A stretch of DNA of 64,000 nt from an uncultured bacterium (GTDB taxonomy: Bacteria > Cyanobacteriota > Vampirovibrionia > Gastranaerophilales > Gastranaerophilaceae): assembly GCA_905216055.1 (NCBI GenBank), contig CAJMSH010000002.1:167079-231078 (forward strand), read 5' to 3'. Shown here piece after piece: positions 4,770-39,792 of the stretch; positions within the stretch are counted from its first letter, which is position 1; each line of letters begins with the position of its first letter. The translations under genes were made by a program, and so were the position numbers. Under the pieces are notes generated by a model, which did not search any database, was not told where the DNA came from, and saw only the letters and a list, made by a program, of their open reading frames with translations.

Positions 4770-5787
4770 TATTATGTTGTATGCAGAAGTTACAAAAGAA
4801 AACTACCTTCATACTGTTGTTTTTGAGCTTGCAAACAAAGCTCAGGAGCTTTCTAAAAAATTGAATAACGCATCTGTTTCTGCTCTTTTGATATGCAAAA
4901 CAGGACTTGCTGAAAACTTTAAAGAAGCATTTATAAATTCAGGCTTTGATTATGTTTATATTGCAGAAAACAACAGATTAACTCATTATTCAACAGAATT
5001 ATATTCAAAAATTGCAATTGACATTATAAATGAAGTCAAACCTGACATAATCCTTGTTGGTGCAACAACTCAAGGAAGAGATATTGCCCCAAGAATTTCG
5101 GCCTCATTACATACAGGTCTGACAGCAGATTGTATAGAACTTGATATTAATGAAAAAGGTCAACTGGCAGCGACCAGACCAACATTTGGCGGGCAATTAA
5201 TGGCTACAATATTATGCAAAACTTTACCGCAAATGGCAACTGTCAGACCAAAAGTTTTTAAACCTGCACCTGAAAATATTGTCAAAGATACGCAATTTAT
5301 TTATTTTAAACCTGAAATCGATAATATTCAAAAGAAAGTTGAATTTATTGAATTTGTAAAAGGTGTAAATACTGCAATTAATGAGCTTGATAGTGCAGAA
5401 ATAATTGTTGCAGGCGGCAAGGGAATGAAAAATGAAGCAGGATTTGAGCTTTTAAGGAATTTTGCAGAATGCCTCGGCGCATGTGTAGGTGCAAGCAGAG
5501 GTGCAGTTGATATGGGACTTGCACCTGTTGATATTCAAATAGGTCAAACAGGCAAAACCGTAACCCCAAAATTATATATAGCTTGCGGAATATCAGGAGC
5601 TATTCAACATATAGTCGGCATGCAAAACAGCGATAAAATTATTGCAATAAATAATGATGCAAATGCACCAATTTTTAAAAATTGTGATTGCGGATTTGTC
5701 GGAGATGTTTTTGAGGTTATCCCCGAATTGATAAAAATAATAAAACAGTCAAATGGGGAAAATGAACCGGATATCAATATATCGTAA
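4762..5787 (+). CDS. etfA: Electron transfer flavoprotein alpha subunit
   Basis: EtfA FAD-binding C-terminal motifs (PKLYIACGISGAIQH); probable start at internal ATG 4762 with RBS ggaggg, overlapping the etfB stop. Confidence 0.85.
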   Translation: MSNIMLYAEVTKENYLHTVVFELANKAQELSKKLNNASVSALLICKTGLAENFKEAFINSGFDYVYIAENNRLTHYSTELYSKIAIDIINEVKPDIILVGATTQGRDIAPRISASLHTGLTADCIELDINEKGQLAATRPTFGGQLMATILCKTLPQMATVRPKVFKPAPENIVKDTQFIYFKPEIDNIQKKVEFIEFVKGVNTAINELDSAEIIVAGGKGMKNEAGFELLRNFAECLGACVGASRGAVDMGLAPVDIQIGQTGKTVTPKLYIACGISGAIQHIVGMQNSDKIIAINNDANAPIFKNCDCGFVGDVFEVIPELIKIIKQSNGENEPDINIS

Positions 5788-5840
5788 ATTTATAATAATA
5801 AAAGCCAAGCAAATCGCATTTTAAATAGAAAAACTACCTC

Positions 5841-5870
5841 TTGACAAAAATTTCTAAATCATAAATAATA
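5841..5870 (+). promoter_or_regulatory. Sigma-70-like promoter candidate (TTGACA -35 with AT-rich -10 region)
   Basis: Perfect TTGACA at 5841-5846 followed 14-18 nt later by ataaat/aataat. Confidence 0.3.
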
Positions 5871-5901
5871 AAGATATTGGAAGCATAAGAGGAGTTTAAA
5901 A

Positions 5902-5949
5902 ATGAGTAATAATAAGGCTTTGAAAGTGCCCCCCCCCCGAGAAACGTAA
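5902..5949 (+). CDS. 15-codon mini-ORF (MSNNKALKVPPPRET) carrying a C10 homopolymer
   Basis: Strong RBS aagaggag 8 nt upstream of the ATG; the ORF contains the poly-C tract; the frame depends on tract length. Confidence 0.3.
   Translation: MSNNKALKVPPPRET
5929..5938 (+). repeat. Homopolymeric C10 tract (candidate slipped-strand phase-variation site)
   Basis: Ten consecutive C in a ~30% GC genome, inside a mini-ORF ~75 nt upstream of a pilin-like gene. Confidence 0.6.
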
Positions 5950-6011
5950 GTATAGCAACAATCTCCAATAATTATATTTACTTTTTAAAAGAAATGTGTC
6001 ATAATTGTGAT

Positions 6012-6680
6012 ATGAAACATCACGTAAATAAGTTTTTGGGTTTTACACTTGCTGAAATTTTAATAACACTTGGCATTATTGGTATAGTTGCAGCATTAAC
6101 TATACCCGCATTAATTGGGAATTATCAAAAGCAATAAACAATTACTAGCTTAAAAAAAGCATATAGCATTATTAATCAAGCAAAAACATTATCTACTATA
6201 GATAATGGAGAATTTGAATATTGGGACAATACACTGCCACCTGAACAATATTTAAACAAATATTGGACACCATATTTTAAAGGGGCAATAATTTGTTTTG
6301 AACACACTCAATGTGGGTATAAAGAATCTACTCCTTGGGAATCTCCAAACTGGTCTTATACTCAATTTGCGTATCCTGATTTCCGTGTACCCTTTATAAC
6401 TGAAGATGGTATTTTATATAGTATTTCTTTGAATGATACACAAGACACAGATATTGGGAAAAAACTAATTTTAATTGATACAAATGGACCTAAAAGACCA
6501 AATAAATCAGGCAATGATTTCTTTTTCCTTATAAGAACAGATGAAGGAAAGATTATGCCATACGGATATGACAAATCTCCCGATGAGATTGATGCAAACT
6601 GTATATCAGGCAATAAAGAATATTGTGCAGCAAAAATATTTAAAGACGGTTGGACTATAACAAAAGACTATCCATGGTAA
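6012..6680 (+). pseudogene. Prepilin-type (type IV pilin/pseudopilin-like) protein gene interrupted by an in-frame TAA at codon 42 (6135-6137)
   Basis: N-terminus MKHHVNKFLG|FTLAEILITLGIIGIVAALTIPALIGNYQKQ, then TAA, then the same frame continues TITSLKKAYSIINQA... to the stop at 6678-6680; the architecture parallels the intact pilin-like gene at 39133-39792. Confidence 0.6.
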
Positions 6681-27794: not shown

Positions 27795-28574
27795 ATGGGA
27801 TTGGAAATTTCAAAAGCGTTTAGTGTAGGCGCAATACAACCGAATATTTATGTTAACCGAAACAGATATAATGTAGGCTTTTTCGGCGACTTATATTCTG
27901 ATAAATTTGAGAGCAACTCTCCACAAAGATATACATCAGAACCTGTTATAAGAAAAATGATTAATTCAAATCCAAAAATAAAAAATCTTGTAAAAGATTT
28001 CAACCCTGAATTAAACTTGAATATGCAGGAATTAGAACAACTTTTGGCACAACATGCAACAGATACAAAAAATATTGCAAAAGGAATAACTCAAAATCTT
28101 CCGTTTTCTCTACAAACAAAAGTAAATACTCAAGCCATAGAATCAGCAGCATACCTTCATGATCTTGGCAAAGTTCTTATACCTGCAGAAATTTTAAACA
28201 AGCCTGACAGACTTAATGAAGCTGAAACACAAATTATGCATAAGCATTCACAATTAAGTTATGAGCTTTTAAAGAATTCAAGCCTTGATGAAAAAACATT
28301 AAACCTAATCAGAAACCACCATCAAAATGCTAAAAAGACAGGCTATCCTTGGGTTGGCAAAGATTTTAATGCAGATTTAGACTTGCAAATTTTATCAACA
28401 GCAGACAAATACTCTGCGCTGACAGAAACTCGTACATATAAAGCACCAATGAGTTCAAAAGAAGCTTTGACAATAATTTACCAAGACGTGAAAGAAGGCA
28501 AACTTCATCCGTTTGTATTCAAAGCACTCGTAAATTATGCAAATGACACAACACCAATGGCAAAAGCAATATAG
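27795..28574 (+). CDS. Stand-alone HD-GYP domain protein (putative c-di-GMP phosphodiesterase)
   Basis: 259 aa; HDLGKV metal-binding motif and HHQNAKKTGYPWVG (HHExxDGxGYP-like). Confidence 0.65.
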   Translation: MGLEISKAFSVGAIQPNIYVNRNRYNVGFFGDLYSDKFESNSPQRYTSEPVIRKMINSNPKIKNLVKDFNPELNLNMQELEQLLAQHATDTKNIAKGITQNLPFSLQTKVNTQAIESAAYLHDLGKVLIPAEILNKPDRLNEAETQIMHKHSQLSYELLKNSSLDEKTLNLIRNHHQNAKKTGYPWVGKDFNADLDLQILSTADKYSALTETRTYKAPMSSKEALTIIYQDVKEGKLHPFVFKALVNYANDTTPMAKAI

Positions 28575-28658: not shown

Positions 28659-30260
<1,602 letters not shown>

Positions 30261-30311
30261 TTATCCCTTTCCAACAATACAATTAAATTTTTAATAAAAA
30301 TTTTTATATTA

Positions 30312-30362
30312 ATTCCCTAAAGTAATTTTGTAAAATTACAAAATACAAAGCCTTTAGGGAAT
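30312..30362 (-). promoter_or_regulatory. Nested palindrome in the gatC-pyrG intergenic region (possible terminator or pyrG leader attenuator)
   Basis: Perfect 11-bp inverted repeat attccctaaag/ctttagggaat enclosing the inner palindrome ttttgtaa/ttacaaaa. Confidence 0.45.
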
Positions 30363-30376
30363 ATAAATATACAATT

Positions 30377-30658
30377 CTAGTTAATTTTAGGTACTTTAAA
30401 AAATCCGTTTTCAACTTCAGGAGCATTAGCCATCAAGTCTTCCTTACTAATTTCTTGAACGACTTTATCTTCTCTCATTACATTACAGAAATCAATAACC
30501 TGACACATTGGCTTAACGTTTGAAGTATCAACTTCATTCATCTGATCAACATACTTTAAAACATCACCTAATTGTTTTGTATATAACTCTTTTTCTTCTT
30601 CTGTTAATTCAAGTCTTGCAAGTTTTGCAACATGTTCTACATCTTTAATCGTAATCAT
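30377..30658 (-). CDS. gatC: Glu-tRNA(Gln)/Asp-tRNA(Asn) amidotransferase subunit C
   Basis: 93 aa; VEHVAKLARLELTEEE motif. Confidence 0.85.
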   Translation of the reverse strand: MITIKDVEHVAKLARLELTEEEKELYTKQLGDVLKYVDQMNEVDTSNVKPMCQVIDFCNVMREDKVVQEISKEDLMANAPEVENGFFKVPKIN

Positions 30659-30724
30659 TTTTCCACTCCGTTATTCTATTATAGTAGCATAAAAATATTA
30701 CATGATGTAAAATTATTACATAAA

Positions 30725-30761
30725 TTTAATGATTTCTAAAATAAAAATGTTATGCTATAAT
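30725..30761 (+). promoter_or_regulatory. Extended -10 promoter (TGcTATAAT) upstream of the sigma factor gene
   Basis: TGCTATAAT at 30753-30761, ~10 nt before the TTG start region. Confidence 0.45.
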
Positions 30762-30771
30762 ACTATTATTA

Positions 30772-31575
30772 TTGGAGATTAATTCGTTGGAGATTAAAGC
30801 AAAAAGACATACAGACGATTTAGATGAACAACTTCTTGCATACAAAGATTGTACTGATGAGAAGAAAAAGCGTATGCTTCATATTAATATTGTTGAAAGC
30901 GGTATGAATCTTGTAAAAAAAATTGCAGGAAATATTTCTGCTCAATCAGGTATTTCTAATGAAGATTTGGTGCAAGTCGGCTCTATTGGATTAATCAAGG
31001 CTATTGAATTTTTTAACCCTCAAAAAAACACAAAATTCAAAACTTATGCCTCTTATTTTATTAGAGGTGAAATCAAACACTATTTGAGAGATAAGGCCTC
31101 TATGATAAAGGCTCCAAGGGAATTACAAGAACTTGTATTCAAAATCAGTTCTGCTGTTAAACAGTTGAAAGAAAAAGGAATTGAAGATCCGTCAGAAGAT
31201 CAAATTGCTGATATTGTCGGAGTTTCCGTTGAAAAGATACATGAAGTAATGGAAATAGAGCTTTGCAAAAGCACACTATCTCTTGATCAAGCAATATCAA
31301 ACGTTGATGATGATGATTTGACTCTTATTGATAAAATCCCGTCTGGCGATTATCAAGAATTTATGAATTCTTATGAAAATAAAATGATGCTTGCTGCTGC
31401 AATAAAAAAATTGCCAAATGATTTACAACAAATTATCGAAATGAGTTATTATGAAGATTTAAACCAGCGTGAAATTTCCGAAAGAATTCATATTTCACAA
31501 ATGCAGGTTTCAAGAAGACTGAAAAAAGCCTTAAGCAAAATGTATGAAATAATTACGTCTAAAGATGAAAAATAA
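30772..31575 (+). CDS. Sigma-70 family sigma factor, group 3 (SigF/SigB-like)
   Basis: 267 aa; regions 2, 3 and 4 recognisable (YASYFIRGEIKHYLRD; C-terminal HTH ISQMQVSRRLKKAL); the start could be either of two tandem TTG codons in the ttggagattaa direct repeat. Confidence 0.75.
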   Translation: MEINSLEIKAKRHTDDLDEQLLAYKDCTDEKKKRMLHINIVESGMNLVKKIAGNISAQSGISNEDLVQVGSIGLIKAIEFFNPQKNTKFKTYASYFIRGEIKHYLRDKASMIKAPRELQELVFKISSAVKQLKEKGIEDPSEDQIADIVGVSVEKIHEVMEIELCKSTLSLDQAISNVDDDDLTLIDKIPSGDYQEFMNSYENKMMLAAAIKKLPNDLQQIIEMSYYEDLNQREISERIHISQMQVSRRLKKALSKMYEIITSKDEK

Positions 31576-31590
31576 AAGGAGACATTAAAA

Positions 31591-32586
31591 ATGGGAGCTT
31601 TAATAGCGATTTTAGCATTTGTTTTTATTATCGGCTTGTGCATTGGAAGTTTTTTAAATGTTGTTATTTTAAGAACTTTAAGCGAGGAATCCATTGTATT
31701 TCCGGCTTCTAAATGCCCAAAATGCCAACACCCGTTAAAATGGTGGCATAATATACCGGTTTTATCTTATATCTTTTTAAGAGGGAAATGTGCTTTTTGT
31801 AAAGAACACATTAGCATTCAATATCCAATTGTTGAACTTTTAACAGGTATAATTTTTACATTATTATTTATGAAATTCGGAGTAAGCGCAGATACACTGT
31901 TTGCGTGGATAATTTCATCATTACTTATCGTAATTGCAGGAACAGATATTAAGGAAAAAGTTGTTTATGATGTTCACACATATACATTAATAGCTATCGG
32001 ACTTTTATACGCGATTGTTGTAACTGCAGTATCTATTTTCCAAACACACATTGCAGGAACTCCAATGGAATTTACAAAATATTTTGTACTTAACAATCCA
32101 ATATTTATGTCACTTATGGGTATGCTTTTAGGTGCTGCTATTCTTGAAATATGCGCAAGAGCAGGATATTTAATTGTTGGGACAAGAGCTTTTGGAGAAG
32201 GTGATACTTTTATCGCTGCAGGTTTAGGTTCAATTTTTGGATGGAGATCTTTAATTGTTGTACTTGCAATGTCAGTTCTTATTCAAGTAATCATATTTTT
32301 ACCTATATTTATAAAAGGACTTGTTAAAAATAAAGATTGGAAAACTCTTACAACCTTCACTGTTTTTGTAATATTTGCAATTGCATTCTACGCATTACAA
32401 AATTACAGAGTTATAACTGTTGAAAATATTGCGCTATACACAGTATTTGCAATAATCCTTGCAGCTCTTGGTATTATATCTTGCGTATTTATCTTTAAAG
32501 GATTACGCGAACACCCTGAAAATAGAACTTATATGCCGTTTGGACCAGCAATGGTTGTTGCAGCATTCATTGCTCTAATTTTATAA
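31591..32586 (+). CDS. pilD: Prepilin peptidase (A24 family, PilD-like)
   Basis: 331 aa; N-terminal CPKCQHPL...CAFC zinc motif and polytopic membrane domain; 15 nt after the sigma gene. Confidence 0.85.
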   Translation: MGALIAILAFVFIIGLCIGSFLNVVILRTLSEESIVFPASKCPKCQHPLKWWHNIPVLSYIFLRGKCAFCKEHISIQYPIVELLTGIIFTLLFMKFGVSADTLFAWIISSLLIVIAGTDIKEKVVYDVHTYTLIAIGLLYAIVVTAVSIFQTHIAGTPMEFTKYFVLNNPIFMSLMGMLLGAAILEICARAGYLIVGTRAFGEGDTFIAAGLGSIFGWRSLIVVLAMSVLIQVIIFLPIFIKGLVKNKDWKTLTTFTVFVIFAIAFYALQNYRVITVENIALYTVFAIILAALGIISCVFIFKGLREHPENRTYMPFGPAMVVAAFIALIL

Positions 32587-39132: not shown

Positions 39133-39792
39133 CTAATAAGTCATTTCCCAATTATCATTAAGGAGTTTGCCAAAGCAGCCCCAACCACTACCCTCAGCAC
39201 CTGCATTACATTGAGAATTAAACATGTTATTCCGTTCTTCTTCTGTCAATGGCGCATTACAACCTGCAATATTTGTATAATCATCGATTAAACCATTTTT
39301 ATAAACAGCAAAAAATATTAAATCTCTTCCTAAAATATTCGGACCACTTTTCCCATTAACATCAATACCAACATTAAGCAACTTATTTTTACCATCATTG
39401 GAATATGAAGGTCTTATTACCGCCCCACTGCTTAGAACAAAAGACTTGACATTTCTTTCATAACTACTATAAACAGTACCTTGTAAAGAATTATACTCAT
39501 CAGCAAAACAATCATCCATTGAATCACATTCTTTTACTATTTTAAAATATGATTTCATAAATGAATTTGTCTCATTTTGAGATACAAGCCCTGCCTCAGT
39601 TAAATTTAAAGCATTTTTATCATTTCTATATTTTAACAAAGCTTGCGAAAATTCATTATATACTTTATGCAACTGAGTTACATAACTCTTACGCTGATAA
39701 TTTTGCGTCAGCGTTGGAAGAGTCATTGCTGAAACAACCCCAATAATTCCTAAAGTGACCAATACCTCTGCTAAAGTGAATGCTCTTCTCAT
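39133..39792 (-). CDS. Prepilin-type N-terminal cleavage/methylation domain protein (type IV pilin/pseudopilin-like)
   Basis: 219 aa; MRRAFTLAEVLVTLGIIGVVSAMTLPTL... class III signal and hydrophobic helix. Confidence 0.8.
   Translation of the reverse strand: MRRAFTLAEVLVTLGIIGVVSAMTLPTLTQNYQRKSYVTQLHKVYNEFSQALLKYRNDKNALNLTEAGLVSQNETNSFMKSYFKIVKECDSMDDCFADEYNSLQGTVYSSYERNVKSFVLSSGAVIRPSYSNDGKNKLLNVGIDVNGKSGPNILGRDLIFFAVYKNGLIDDYTNIAGCNAPLTEEERNNMFNSQCNAGAEGSGWGCFGKLLNDNWEMTY

What the first reader, a model, noticed from the sequence alone, without database searches (positions are those of the whole stretch)
5902..6014. C10 homopolymer inside a mini-ORF upstream of a pilin-like gene: candidate slipped-strand phase-variation switch
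A run of ten C (5929-5938) in a ~30% GC genome is highly improbable by composition. It lies within a 15-codon ORF that has a strong RBS (aagaggag). Reading the sequence with one extra C places this mini-ORF in the same frame as the pilin-like gene ATG at 6012, with no intervening stop. I checked every codon from 5940 to 6011. A +1 slip would therefore fuse the leader ORF to the pilin-like gene, and -1 or 0 states would terminate early. This is the classic architecture of polyG/polyC contingency loci controlling surface structures.
Basis: partly seen in the sequence, partly recalled or inferred. Interest (0 to 1): 0.65.

Follow-up and report, generated by a model that had tools for sequence, protein, structure and literature searches.

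The report
Poly-C switch in a pilin leader
The ten-C run is real and belongs to a conserved leader placed in front of dozens of pilin-like surface-protein genes in gut Melainabacteria, where a one-base change in run length puts the gene in or out of frame; in this window the switch reads "off" and the pilin gene behind it also carries a premature stop.

Summary
C10 at 5929-5938 is the only G/C run longer than 5 in 64 kb (about 0.002 expected). It lies in a 15-codon ORF (5902-5949) behind a TTGACA/AATAAT promoter-like site and an AAGAGGAG ribosome-binding site. One extra C fuses that ORF to the prepilin-like gene at 6012.

In Gastranaerophilales (gut Melainabacteria) contigs, about 45 distinct DUF6613 prepilin-like loci carry the same 5' module:
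- **Layout:** promoter, ribosome-binding site, ATG, about 8 codons, a C or G run, then a stop-free linker into G|FTLAE.
- **Linkers:** 59 of 59 are open in the pilin frame.
- **Specificity:** 71 of 75 G/C runs of 8 or more lie just upstream of a pilin.
- **In-frame alleles:** they exist at C11, C8, G9 and G12.
- **Polymorphism at one locus:** C9/C10/C11 and G9-G12. The window's own leader is C10 in 11 assemblies and C9 in 1.

Two caveats apply:
- The window's pilin gene has an in-frame TAA at 6135-6137 (GAA or GTA in intact orthologues), so even "on" it would give only a 78-residue product.
- The run is exactly 10 in about 80-90% of copies. Programmed transcriptional slippage therefore remains a serious rival to heritable phase variation.

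The parts
5841..5869 (+). Promoter-like site TTGACA-17-AATAAT that drives the leader and pilin transcript
   Evidence: It is the best match in the region, 11 of 12 positions. The same TTGACAAA...AATAATAAATAAT block is conserved in front of the module in L024-L041 and other loci.
5887..5894 (+). Ribosome-binding site AAGAGGAG, 7 nt before ATG 5902
   Evidence: Read directly from the sequence. Paralogous modules have GGAGG 7 nt before their ATG.
5902..5949 (+). Leader ORF as read at C10: MSNNKALKVPPPRET*. This is the 'off' reading, and its ATG is the conserved translational start of the family
   Evidence: The equivalent ORF MF(I/R/K)QEALRVPPPRET* is found in paralogues. Substitutions before the run are conservative in this frame only: A-L-R/K-V/I/L.
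5929..5938 (+). C10 homopolymer, the frame-setting run. C11 or C8 would fuse the leader ATG to the pilin frame
   Evidence: Window-type leader: C10 in 11 assemblies and C9 in 1. The allele at the same chromosomal position in L023 is C8 and in frame.
5939..6038 (+). Linker, which is the rest of a long prepilin leader in the pilin frame (..RNVSIATISNNYIYFLKEMCHNCDMKHHVNKFLG). It ends at the Gly before the predicted prepilin cleavage site
   Evidence: It is stop-free here and in 59 of 59 related leaders. In-frame relatives show the same peptide pattern: P0093, P0120, P0174.
5977..6005 (+). Internal promoter-like site TTTACT-17-CATAAT, 6 nt before ATG 6012. It could allow a leaderless start, but its status is doubtful
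   Evidence: 9 of 12 positions, TG present. The codon at 6012 is ATG in some orthologous assemblies and ATA in others, and ATA, ACA or ATC in paralogues.
6012..6134 (+). 5' part of the prepilin-like gene: short-leader start MKHHVNKFLG, then the FTLAE... N-terminal hydrophobic helix (mature residue 1 = F at 6039)
   Evidence: The window protein scores 20.1 bits on Pfam N_methyl, just below the 21.2 cut-off, and 24.5 on DUF6613. TIGR02532 passes its cut-off for the intact orthologues P0001 and P0128.
6135..6137 (+). In-frame TAA, a premature stop after mature residue 31
   Evidence: The codon is GAA in L003/P0001 and GTA in L023, L176 and L177. TAA is present in the window and in 12 related assemblies, L002 and L013-L022 minus none.
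6138..6680 (+). Remainder of the pilin-like ORF, in frame and otherwise intact, ending at TAA 6678-6680
   Evidence: It is 98% identical to the intact 222-aa P0001. The terminal 83-aa ORF (P0121) is identical on at least 20 contigs.
31591..32586 (+). Prepilin peptidase gene (context): the enzyme expected to remove the leader
   Evidence: Pfam A24_N_bact 1.7e-36 and Peptidase_A24 3.3e-08.

Best explanation
The C10 run is the frame-setting element of a conserved 5' module that precedes most DUF6613 prepilin-like genes of gut Gastranaerophilales (Melainabacteria).

**How it would work.** Transcription starts at the TTGACA/AATAAT promoter and translation at the ATG behind the strong ribosome-binding site. 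The first 9 codons, the run, and the following 8-60 codons together encode an extended prepilin leader peptide, which the prepilin peptidase would remove at G|FTLAE. Slipped-strand mispairing during replication changes the run length.
- At C11 or C8 the leader is in frame and a full prepilin is made ('on').
- At C10 or C9 translation stops after a few codons ('off').

With many such genes per genome, each cell would display a different subset of pilin-like proteins.

**State of this window.** The switch is 'off' (C10). The pilin gene is also inactivated by a nonsense codon at 6135-6137, so this copy is a switch in front of a recently disabled gene.

**Shown:** the anatomy, the family-wide conservation, the open linkers, the existence of in-frame alleles, and length polymorphism between samples.

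**Inferred:** that switching is frequent and reversible within populations, that 'on' alleles are expressed and processed, and that the system is adaptive.
For: **Run and frame arithmetic.**

**The same module elsewhere.**
- 19 of 19 metagenome matches.
- 28 copies in species-representative genomes titled Candidatus Gastranaerophilales, 'uncultured Clostridium sp.' MAGs, or Clostridium sp. CAG:768.
- A poly-G class carries the same layout.

**Coding evidence.**
- 59 of 59 linkers are stop-free in the pilin frame.
- Substitutions are conservative in the ATG frame before the run and in the pilin frame after it.

**Specificity.** 71 of 75 distinct G/C runs of 8 or more in 562 kb lie within 260 nt upstream of a pilin N-terminus.

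**In-frame alleles.**
- C11 in L007-L010, L084 and L178-L180.
- C8 in L023, at the window's own position between the ETF-alpha and purA genes.
- Protein pairs within 90%-identity clusters differ exactly as a length change predicts: P0160 vs P0169, P0117 vs P0174, P0103 vs P0137, and P0203 vs P0204.

**Polymorphism at one locus with identical flanks.**
- G10 in 5 samples and G11 in 2.
- C9 in 3 samples, C10 and C11.
- Window-type leader C10 in 11 assemblies and C9 in 1.

**The genes are otherwise kept intact.** Run-linked pilins have 190-244-aa mature ORFs, apart from the window lineage and some cut by contig ends.

**Surface-protein identity.** TIGR02532 passes its cut-off, DUF6613 matches, and a prepilin peptidase is encoded in the window.

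**Precedents.**
- A poly-G run lies in the signal-peptide region of Neisseria pilC (PMC2193922, citing Jonsson 1991).
- C. jejuni polyG tracts have a modal length and length-dependent insertion/deletion bias (PMC3401435).
Against: - **The run length is too uniform.** It is exactly 10 in about 80% of 97 instances, and in about 60 of 65 instances from surveys not biased by protein length. For comparison, rates measured in C. jejuni predict a neutral equilibrium of about 52% at the mode (my calculation from PMC3401435).
- **The frame state is too uniform.** 49 of 59 leaders are in the same state, 'N10, needs +1 nt'. That looks more like a conserved recoding site than a randomly drifting switch.
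- **Little variation at this locus.** 11 of 12 assemblies with the window's leader are C10.
- **Key properties untested.** There are no read-level data on heterogeneity within a population and no expression data.
- **This copy cannot be functional.** Because of the TAA at 6135-6137, a working switch cannot be claimed for this particular copy.
Confidence: 0.58

Rival explanations
1. **Programmed recoding at a fixed N10 run.** The genomic state C10/G10, one base short of in frame, is the selected functional state. RNA polymerase slips on the 10-nt homopolymer, which is at least as long as the RNA:DNA hybrid, and adds one base to a fraction of transcripts. Less likely, ribosomes shift -1 on C CCC CCC. 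Either way a set fraction of leader-pilin fusion is made from every copy. The DNA-level length variants would then be by-products.
For: - 49 of 59 leaders share exactly 'N10, needs +1 nt', in both the C and the G orientation and across diverged leaders.
- About 60 of 65 unbiased instances are length 10.
- The frame transition is conserved, with coding signatures on both sides of the run. A conserved frameshift site is the criterion for programmed frameshift clusters in PMC3711429.
- It works in both orientations, which favours a polymerase-based mechanism over a tRNA-specific one.
Against: - In-frame DNA alleles (C11, C8, G9, G12) recur in independent samples.
- At one locus N10 needs -1 nt rather than +1, and lengths 9 to 12 all occur there.
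- No conserved RNA hairpin or downstream structure was found: alifold -5.8 kcal/mol with no covariation, and z = 0.02 for the window RNA.
- Known productive slippage sites are mostly A/T runs (PMC3711429). C or G in the YYY position of a -1 slippery heptamer is regarded as poor (my own knowledge).
Confidence: 0.24
2. **Independent upstream ORF.** The mini-ORF is a separate regulatory leader peptide, for example with Pro-Pro-Pro stalling that depends on EF-P. The pilin is translated on its own from ATG 6012, possibly on a leaderless mRNA from the internal TTTACT-17-CATAAT promoter. The run would matter for the peptide it encodes, not for the frame.
For: - An internal promoter-like site ends 6 nt before ATG 6012.
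- The leader encodes PPP.
- Many family members have short leaders of 5-9 residues with their own ATG.
Against: - Short-linker copies have no start codon at all between the run and FTLAE.
- The codon equivalent to 6012 is ATA, ACA or ATC in many orthologues and paralogues.
- The poly-G class would encode GGG, not PPP.
- The linker stays open in the pilin frame in 59 of 59 cases.
- In-frame fusion alleles exist.
Confidence: 0.07
3. **Decay without function.** The runs are merely mutation-prone sequence in a pilin family that is being lost. The out-of-frame state reflects pseudogenisation rather than a switch.
For: The window copy is clearly disabled by the TAA at 6135-6137. The whole cassette is absent from L001. 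Most copies are out of frame.
Against: - Apart from the window lineage and copies cut by contig ends, run-linked pilins keep full-length ORFs.
- All linkers stay open.
- The promoter, ribosome-binding site, ATG and run are conserved across species while the mature proteins have diverged to about 35-50% identity.
- A run that was not maintained would be expected to be interrupted by substitutions, and this is rarely seen.
Confidence: 0.08
4. **Sequencing or assembly artefact** at a homopolymer.
For: Homopolymers are error-prone, and some contigs have low coverage, about 2-6x according to their names.
Against: The same C10 appears in the window and in 10 independent assemblies of this leader, and in dozens of paralogues from different projects. 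The variant lengths recur in independent samples.
Confidence: 0.01

Closest known systems
Neisseria gonorrhoeae/meningitidis pilC: poly-G run in the signal-peptide coding region (Jonsson et al. 1991, as cited in PMC2193922)
   Same: A G/C homopolymer of about 10 nt sits in the part of the ORF that encodes a cleaved N-terminal leader of a pilus-related protein. One-base length changes switch translation on and off.
   Different: - PilC is a single or duplicated pilus-tip/assembly protein with a Sec signal peptide. Here the run sits in a class III (prepilin) leader of the pilin-like subunits themselves.
- Here it is repeated as a conserved module in front of dozens of paralogues, with its own promoter and ribosome-binding site.
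- The host is an uncultured gut commensal lineage, not a pathogen.
- Switching has not been demonstrated here.
Campylobacter jejuni polyG/polyC contingency genes (PMC3401435, PMC4965091)
   Same: Both are low-GC genomes in which G/C runs of 8-11 nt are otherwise very rare. Both have many such loci per genome, a modal run length, and surface-structure genes as targets.
   Different: - In C. jejuni the mode is 9 with a broad spread, and the runs sit in unrelated genes (capsule, LOS, flagellar modification, restriction-modification).
- Here the mode is 10, much sharper, and the runs are almost exclusively in one gene family within a shared leader module.
Bordetella pertussis fim2/fim3 and Neisseria opc/porA promoter poly-C/G tracts (opc/porA: PMC2193922, PMC3960869; fim: my own knowledge)
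   Same: A poly-C run controls fimbrial or outer-membrane protein expression by changes in length.
   Different: Those runs lie within or next to the promoter (between the -35 and -10 hexamers in porA) and tune transcription. Here the run lies 60 nt downstream of the -10 hexamer, after the ribosome-binding site and ATG, inside a reading frame.
Programmed transcriptional realignment/slippage sites (Thermus dnaX, IS elements, Shigella mxiE; overview in PMC3711429)
   Same: A homopolymer of 9 or more nt lies at a conserved frame transition between two coding segments, with the genomic sequence kept out of frame.
   Different: Known cases use A or T runs, and the genomic length is essentially invariant. 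Here the runs are C or G, and DNA alleles of different lengths, including in-frame ones, occur in nature.

Membership tests
Homopolymer (SSR) contingency locus with translational phase variation | A mononucleotide run of about 7 nt or more inside the 5' coding region | tested here: met
   C10 at 5929-5938 inside the ORF that starts at 5902.
Homopolymer (SSR) contingency locus with translational phase variation | Changes of +/-1 unit alternate between a full-length and a truncated reading frame | tested here: met
   The frame arithmetic holds here. In-frame C11, C8, G9 and G12 alleles give full prepilins in relatives. In this window the 'on' product would still be cut short by the TAA at 6135.
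Homopolymer (SSR) contingency locus with translational phase variation | Run length is polymorphic among closely related strains at the same locus | tested here: met
   Window-type leader: C10 in 11 assemblies, C9 in 1. Locus next to the response regulator: C9, C10 and C11. P0197 locus: G10/G11 in DNA and G9/G12 inferred from protein N-termini. 5 of 21 loci sampled at least twice are polymorphic.
Homopolymer (SSR) contingency locus with translational phase variation | High-frequency, reversible switching within a clonal population | not testable with these tools
   Only consensus assemblies are available, with no reads and no cultures.
Homopolymer (SSR) contingency locus with translational phase variation | Expression of the product depends on run length | not testable with these tools
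   This needs reporter fusions, proteomics or transcriptomics.
Prepilin-type (type IV pilin / T2SS pseudopilin-like) protein | An N-terminal G|FxxxE cleavage/methylation motif followed by a hydrophobic helix | tested here: met
   The window protein has LG|FTLAEILITLGIIGIVAAL. TIGR02532 scores 18.7-20.5 bits against a cut-off of 16.3 for the orthologues P0001 and P0128. The window protein scores 20.1 on Pfam N_methyl against a cut-off of 21.2, just below.
Prepilin-type (type IV pilin / T2SS pseudopilin-like) protein | A cognate prepilin peptidase is present in the genome | tested here: met
   Window 31591-32586 matches A24_N_bact and Peptidase_A24. A T2SSE-type ATPase lies next to a paralogue in L162.
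Prepilin-type (type IV pilin / T2SS pseudopilin-like) protein | An intact mature (globular) domain | tested here: not met
   The in-frame TAA at 6135-6137 ends the protein after mature residue 31. The domain is intact in the orthologues P0001, P0124 and P0128.
Programmed transcriptional slippage / -1 frameshift site | The frameshift site and direction are conserved across homologues | tested here: met
   49 of 59 leaders are N10 needing +1 nt.
Programmed transcriptional slippage / -1 frameshift site | A stimulatory RNA structure or element lies next to the slippery run | tested here: not met
   No conserved structure or covariation was found. The window RNA folds no better than shuffles, z = 0.02. 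There is no Rfam match.
Programmed transcriptional slippage / -1 frameshift site | mRNA or protein is heterogeneous from a single DNA length | not testable with these tools
   This needs a comparison of RNA and DNA run lengths, or mass spectrometry.
Promoter-spacer homopolymer switch (Bordetella fim, Neisseria porA type) | The run lies between or next to the -35 and -10 hexamers | tested here: not met
   The promoter-like site is at 5841-5869. The run starts 60 nt further downstream, after the ribosome-binding site and ATG.

The most novel reading that the evidence does not exclude
Gut Gastranaerophilales use one conserved leader module, with a run held at exactly 10 C or G, to express a repertoire of dozens of pilin-like genes stochastically. 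This would work through programmed RNA-polymerase slippage on a G/C homopolymer, alone or layered on heritable DNA slippage. It would be a family-wide recoding system on G/C runs, of a kind not described before, in a lineage with no known phase variation.
Probability: 0.22. Interest if true: 0.78.

Novelty: new member of a known kind. Interest (0 to 1): 0.58.

Why it matters
Melainabacteria (Gastranaerophilales) are uncultured, non-photosynthetic relatives of cyanobacteria that are common in human and animal guts, and little is known about how they interact with the host. This finding indicates that they carry a large set of pilin-like surface-protein genes, nearly every one behind a mutable C/G run in a shared leader. 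That would make it a 'phasome' devoted to a single protein family.

- **If the runs switch as predicted:** these commensals vary their surface filaments cell by cell, much as Neisseria or Campylobacter do. That bears on immune evasion, phage resistance and adhesion in the gut.
- **A practical consequence for annotation:** gene callers currently give these genes wrong or truncated N-termini. Examples are 'MKNV..FESAPPPRN' starts from a TTG that abuts the ribosome-binding site, or 199-202-aa fragments starting inside the transmembrane helix.
- **An open question:** the unusually sharp mode at 10 nt, which the paired DNA/RNA reads listed under next steps could address.

Tried and rejected
- **Known RNA family or riboswitch:** an Rfam scan of 5700-6200 at a permissive E-value gave only chance-level hits.
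- **Conserved RNA structure:** RNAalifold on 15 module copies and a single-sequence fold of the window leader found no supported structure. The predicted pairing between the ribosome-binding site and the poly-C run rests only on invariant columns.
- **TTG start at C10:** the TTG directly after GGAGG, which gene callers use at C10, is rejected as the real start.
  - It has no spacing from the ribosome-binding site.
  - It is closed by TAG or TAA in many copies.
  - Substitutions before the run are conservative only in the ATG frame.
- **Invertible element:** the C and G classes do share an inverted core flank. However, the surrounding leaders differ entirely, and no flanking inverted repeats were examined or evident, so this was not pursued.
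- **Genome scan pattern too short:** Only 28 matches were real module copies.
- **ETF-alpha look-up:** the exact-protein look-up of the ETF-alpha neighbour found nothing, because the start codon was called differently.
- **PDB sequence search:** it matched only the generic N-terminal pilin helix. No structure prediction was run because it would not bear on the switch.
- **Cassette junction:** alignment against the empty site in L001 showed no obvious target duplication or repeats.
- **Literature:** searches found no report of pilin phase variation in Melainabacteria or Gastranaerophilales.
Full report
**1. The observation**

The window has ten consecutive C at 5929-5938. It is the only C or G run longer than five bases in 64 kb of 32% GC sequence, and composition predicts about 0.002 such runs.

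The run lies in a 15-codon ORF, ATG 5902 to TAA 5947-5949, encoding MSNNKALKVPPPRET*. AAGAGGAG sits 7 nt upstream of that ATG. The best promoter-like site of the region, TTGACA-17-AATAAT, lies at 5841-5869.

The downstream gene (ATG 6012) begins MKHHVNKFLG|FTLAEILITLGIIGIVAAL.., a prepilin-type N-terminus. The supporting scores are:
- Pfam N_methyl 20.1 bits, just below the 21.2 cut-off, and DUF6613 24.5 bits.
- TIGR02532 above its cut-off for the intact orthologues.

ATG 6012 is 110 nt after ATG 5902, so the pilin frame is -1 relative to the mini-ORF. One added C, or two removed, joins them. The pilin frame is open from 5916.

After it, the same frame continues intact to the natural stop at 6678-6680.

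**2. This locus in other assemblies**

Exact-protein look-ups through the neighbouring purA gene and through the 83-aa C-terminal ORF recovered the same chromosomal position, between the ETF-alpha and purA genes, from many human-gut assemblies.

- **Run length:** sequences with the window-type leader carry C10 in 11 cases, the window included, and C9 in one, L177.
- **Premature stop:** the TAA is present in the window and in 12 related assemblies. The codon is GAA in L003 (protein P0001, 222 aa, 98% identical) and GTA in L023, L176 and L177. The window copy is therefore a nonsense mutant of an otherwise intact gene.
- **Start codon at 6012:** it is ATG in some of these assemblies and ATA in others.
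- **An in-frame allele at this position:** L023 (GCA_902472585.1) has C8 and a short linker. The leader ATG is in frame: MSNNKALRLPPPRNVNSSKA|FTLAE.., 232 aa.
- **Cassette presence or absence:** L001 lacks the whole cassette of about 890 bp. L003 has a second cassette between purA and the M16 peptidase gene, where the window has only 51 bp.

**3. A family-wide module**

A homologue search returned 775 DUF6613 prepilin-like proteins. About 23 of the top 120 have PPP or GGG(G) near the N-terminus of an extended leader. The DNA shows why.

In front of these genes lies a conserved module of about 120 nt: TTGACAAA..AATAATAAATAAT..GGAGGTTGAAAAATGTTTATTCAAGAAGCTTTGAGAGTG-C10-GCGAAACATAA..TTCTAAGGCTTTCAC(T)CTTGCAGAAGT. 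A second class has a poly-G run with varied upstream leaders.

The source records name the organisms as Candidatus Gastranaerophilales, Candidatus Melainabacteria, Clostridium sp. CAG:768, 'Fusobacterium sp. CAG:439', and Candidatus Stercorousia/Scatenecus. All are gut Melainabacteria MAG lineages.

Several results show that the leader ATG and the pilin belong to one gene split at the run:
- **Open linkers:** all 59 distinct linkers of 7-59 codons between run and FTLAE are stop-free in the pilin frame. A single 24-codon linker would be open about 15% of the time by chance (my calculation from the composition).
- **Substitution pattern:** before the run, substitutions are conservative in the ATG frame (A-L-R/K-V/I/L) and not in the other frames. 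After the run they are conservative in the pilin frame (P-R/Q/K-N/S-I/V/L).
- **No alternative start:** short-linker copies have no start codon between run and FTLAE. The TTG abutting GGAGG, which gene callers use at C10, is closed by TAG or TAA in many copies.
- **Specificity:** 71 of 75 distinct G/C runs of 8 or more in 562 kb of these loci lie within 260 nt upstream of a pilin N-terminus. The other four look like the same module at contig ends or in front of disrupted genes.
- **Genes kept intact:** run-linked pilins keep 190-244-aa mature ORFs, apart from the window lineage and some cut by contig ends.

The 'mini-ORF' is therefore best read as the start of a long prepilin leader peptide. 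In the window's C11 form it would be 47 residues, removed at G|F by the prepilin peptidase. The window encodes that enzyme at 31591-32586.

**4. Does the run vary?**

Yes.

- **In-frame alleles:**
  - C11 in L007-L010, four samples.
  - C11 in L084, whose orthologue in L026 is C10.
  - C11 in L178-L180, three samples.
  - C8 in L023.
  - G9 and G12, inferred from P0016, P0203 and P0204.
- **Out-of-frame variants with identical flanks:** C9 in L170, L172 and L174; G11 in L163 and L167 against G10 in five other samples; C9 in L177 for the window's own leader.
- **Protein clusters:** within 90%-identity clusters the called N-termini differ exactly as length changes predict.
- **Overall:** five of 21 loci sampled at least twice are polymorphic.

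**5. The complication: the run is nearly always ten**

Of 97 instances the counts are C10 62, G10 17, C11 8, C9 5, G11 2, G9 2 and C8 1. Several of the non-10 cases were retrieved by protein look-ups biased towards them.

In surveys that did not depend on run length, about 60 of 65 instances are 10. Those surveys were:
- the metagenome pattern allowing C6-C15, which gave 19 of 19 at C10;
- the genome pattern upstream of the run, which gave C10 in 25 copies, C9 in 1, C11 in 1, and one uninformative C9 at a contig end;
- look-ups through the C-terminal ORFs.

In addition, 49 of 59 leaders are in the same state, 'N10, needs +1 nt'.

*Comparison with C. jejuni.* There, polyG tracts also have a mode (G9). 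Insertion bias at G8/G9 and deletion bias at G10/G11 produce it (PMC3401435). From the published rates I calculate a neutral equilibrium of roughly 15%, 52%, 30% and 3% for G8 to G11, which is broader than seen here.

*How a DNA-only model could still fit.* It needs the insertion/deletion cross-over in these bacteria to lie between 10 and 11, and 'on' (11) to be the minority state at most loci. At the one locus where both 10 and 11 are 'off', G11 is indeed common, in 2 of 7 samples.

*What remains open.* A conserved frame transition at a conserved site is also the signature of programmed recoding (criteria in PMC3711429). A run of 10 exceeds the RNA:DNA hybrid length, so RNA-polymerase slippage is mechanistically plausible.
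- **Against recoding as the sole mechanism:** in-frame DNA alleles recur, one locus needs the opposite direction of shift, no stimulatory RNA structure was found, and known productive slippage sites are A/T runs.
- **Against ribosomal -1 frameshifting in particular:** the element works as poly-C and as poly-G, which argues against a tRNA-specific mechanism.

**6. Best explanation**

The run is a slipped-strand, heritable on/off switch placed in the cleavable leader of prepilin-like genes. It is replicated across a large paralogous family, so that cells display different subsets of these proteins.

For the window itself, the switch reads 'off' (C10). The gene behind it is also knocked out by a nonsense codon, so C11 would give only a 78-residue product. 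Confidences:

| Explanation | Confidence |
|---|---|
| DNA-level switch | about 0.58 |
| Programmed slippage at a fixed N10 | about 0.24 |
| Independent upstream-ORF regulation with a separate start at 6012 | about 0.07 |
| Functionless decay | about 0.08 |
| Artefact | about 0.01 |

**7. Comparison with known systems**

- **Closest analogue:** the poly-G run in the signal-peptide coding region of Neisseria pilC (PMC2193922, citing Jonsson 1991).
- **Closest genome-wide analogue:** the C. jejuni polyG/C contingency genes (PMC3401435).
- **Not a promoter-spacer switch:** the run lies after the ribosome-binding site and ATG, unlike the Bordetella fim or Neisseria porA type.
- **Membership status:** the sequence-level criteria for an SSR contingency locus are met, namely the run, the frame logic, polymorphism between strains, and a surface-protein target. 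The population-level and expression criteria cannot be tested here.
- **Literature:** searches found no report of such a system in Melainabacteria or Gastranaerophilales.

**8. Verdict**

I file it as a new member of a known kind. Three aspects are of wider interest:
- the lineage, an uncultured group of gut commensals;
- the near-exclusive association of the run with one large pilin-like family through a shared leader module;
- the unexplained fixation of the run at 10 nt.

The particular copy in this window is a disabled one.

Noticed in passing
window 6135-6137: An in-frame TAA interrupts the pilin-like ORF after mature residue 31, yet the following 540 nt stay in frame and intact. The same TAA is in 12 other gut-metagenome assemblies, while intact orthologues have GAA or GTA. 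This looks like a recent nonsense mutation that has spread widely.
   Followed up: yes
window 5788-6680; L001 3914-3935; L003 5060-5812: The whole promoter, leader and pilin cassette of about 890 bp is missing from an otherwise syntenic strain, L001, which has only 87 bp between the ETF-alpha and purA genes. L003 has an extra cassette between purA and the M16 peptidase gene, where the window has 51 bp. Pilin cassettes are therefore present or absent between strains. No repeats were seen at the junction.
   Followed up: partly
window 5977-6014: TTTACT-17-CATAAT ends 6 nt before ATG 6012, which would suit a leaderless transcript. However, that codon is ATA in about half of the same-locus assemblies, and ATA, ACA or ATC in paralogues. 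The surrounding peptide block, C-x-N-S-D-[M/I/T]-K-H-H, is conserved in long leaders of both the poly-C and poly-G classes, and its function is unknown.
   Followed up: partly
window 39133-39792 (- strand): A second DUF6613 prepilin-like gene (MRRA|FTLAEVL.., 219 aa) has no G/C run. A close relative in Clostridium sp. CAG:768 (L120, around position 5290) carries a G10 leader. The run-bearing leader can therefore be present or absent in front of closely related genes.
   Followed up: partly
L027, L033, L038, L042, L083, L090, L120, L128, L130 (poly-G leaders) compared with window 5917-5939: The poly-G class carries the same core flank as the poly-C class, but inverted: G10-CAnnTTTWRAGCTY against RAGCTYWAAAnnTG-C10. 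An orientation-independent role at the DNA level or an ancestral inversion could explain it, but neither was tested.
   Followed up: no
L004 2997-3010; L024, L169-L175; proteins P0093, P0112, P0160 (CDE43035.1 'lspG'): At C10, gene callers start these genes at a TTG directly abutting GGAGG, giving 'MKNV..FESAPPPRN' N-termini, or at a Met inside the transmembrane helix, giving 199-202-aa fragments. Public annotations of this family therefore carry systematically wrong N-termini.
   Followed up: yes
window 28659-32586: The genes for CTP synthase, GatC, a sigma-70-family factor (30772-31575) and a prepilin peptidase (31591-32586) lie in the same order as in L004. In L004 a C10-leader pilin (P0093) sits next to the CTP synthase gene, whereas the window has an HD-domain gene (27795-28574) there instead.
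   Followed up: partly
L162-L168: One poly-G pilin locus lies between a Glyco_transf_28-family (PF03033/PF04101) glycosyltransferase gene and a T2SSE/MshEN-type secretion ATPase gene, which links at least this paralogue physically to pilus or secretion machinery.
   Followed up: no
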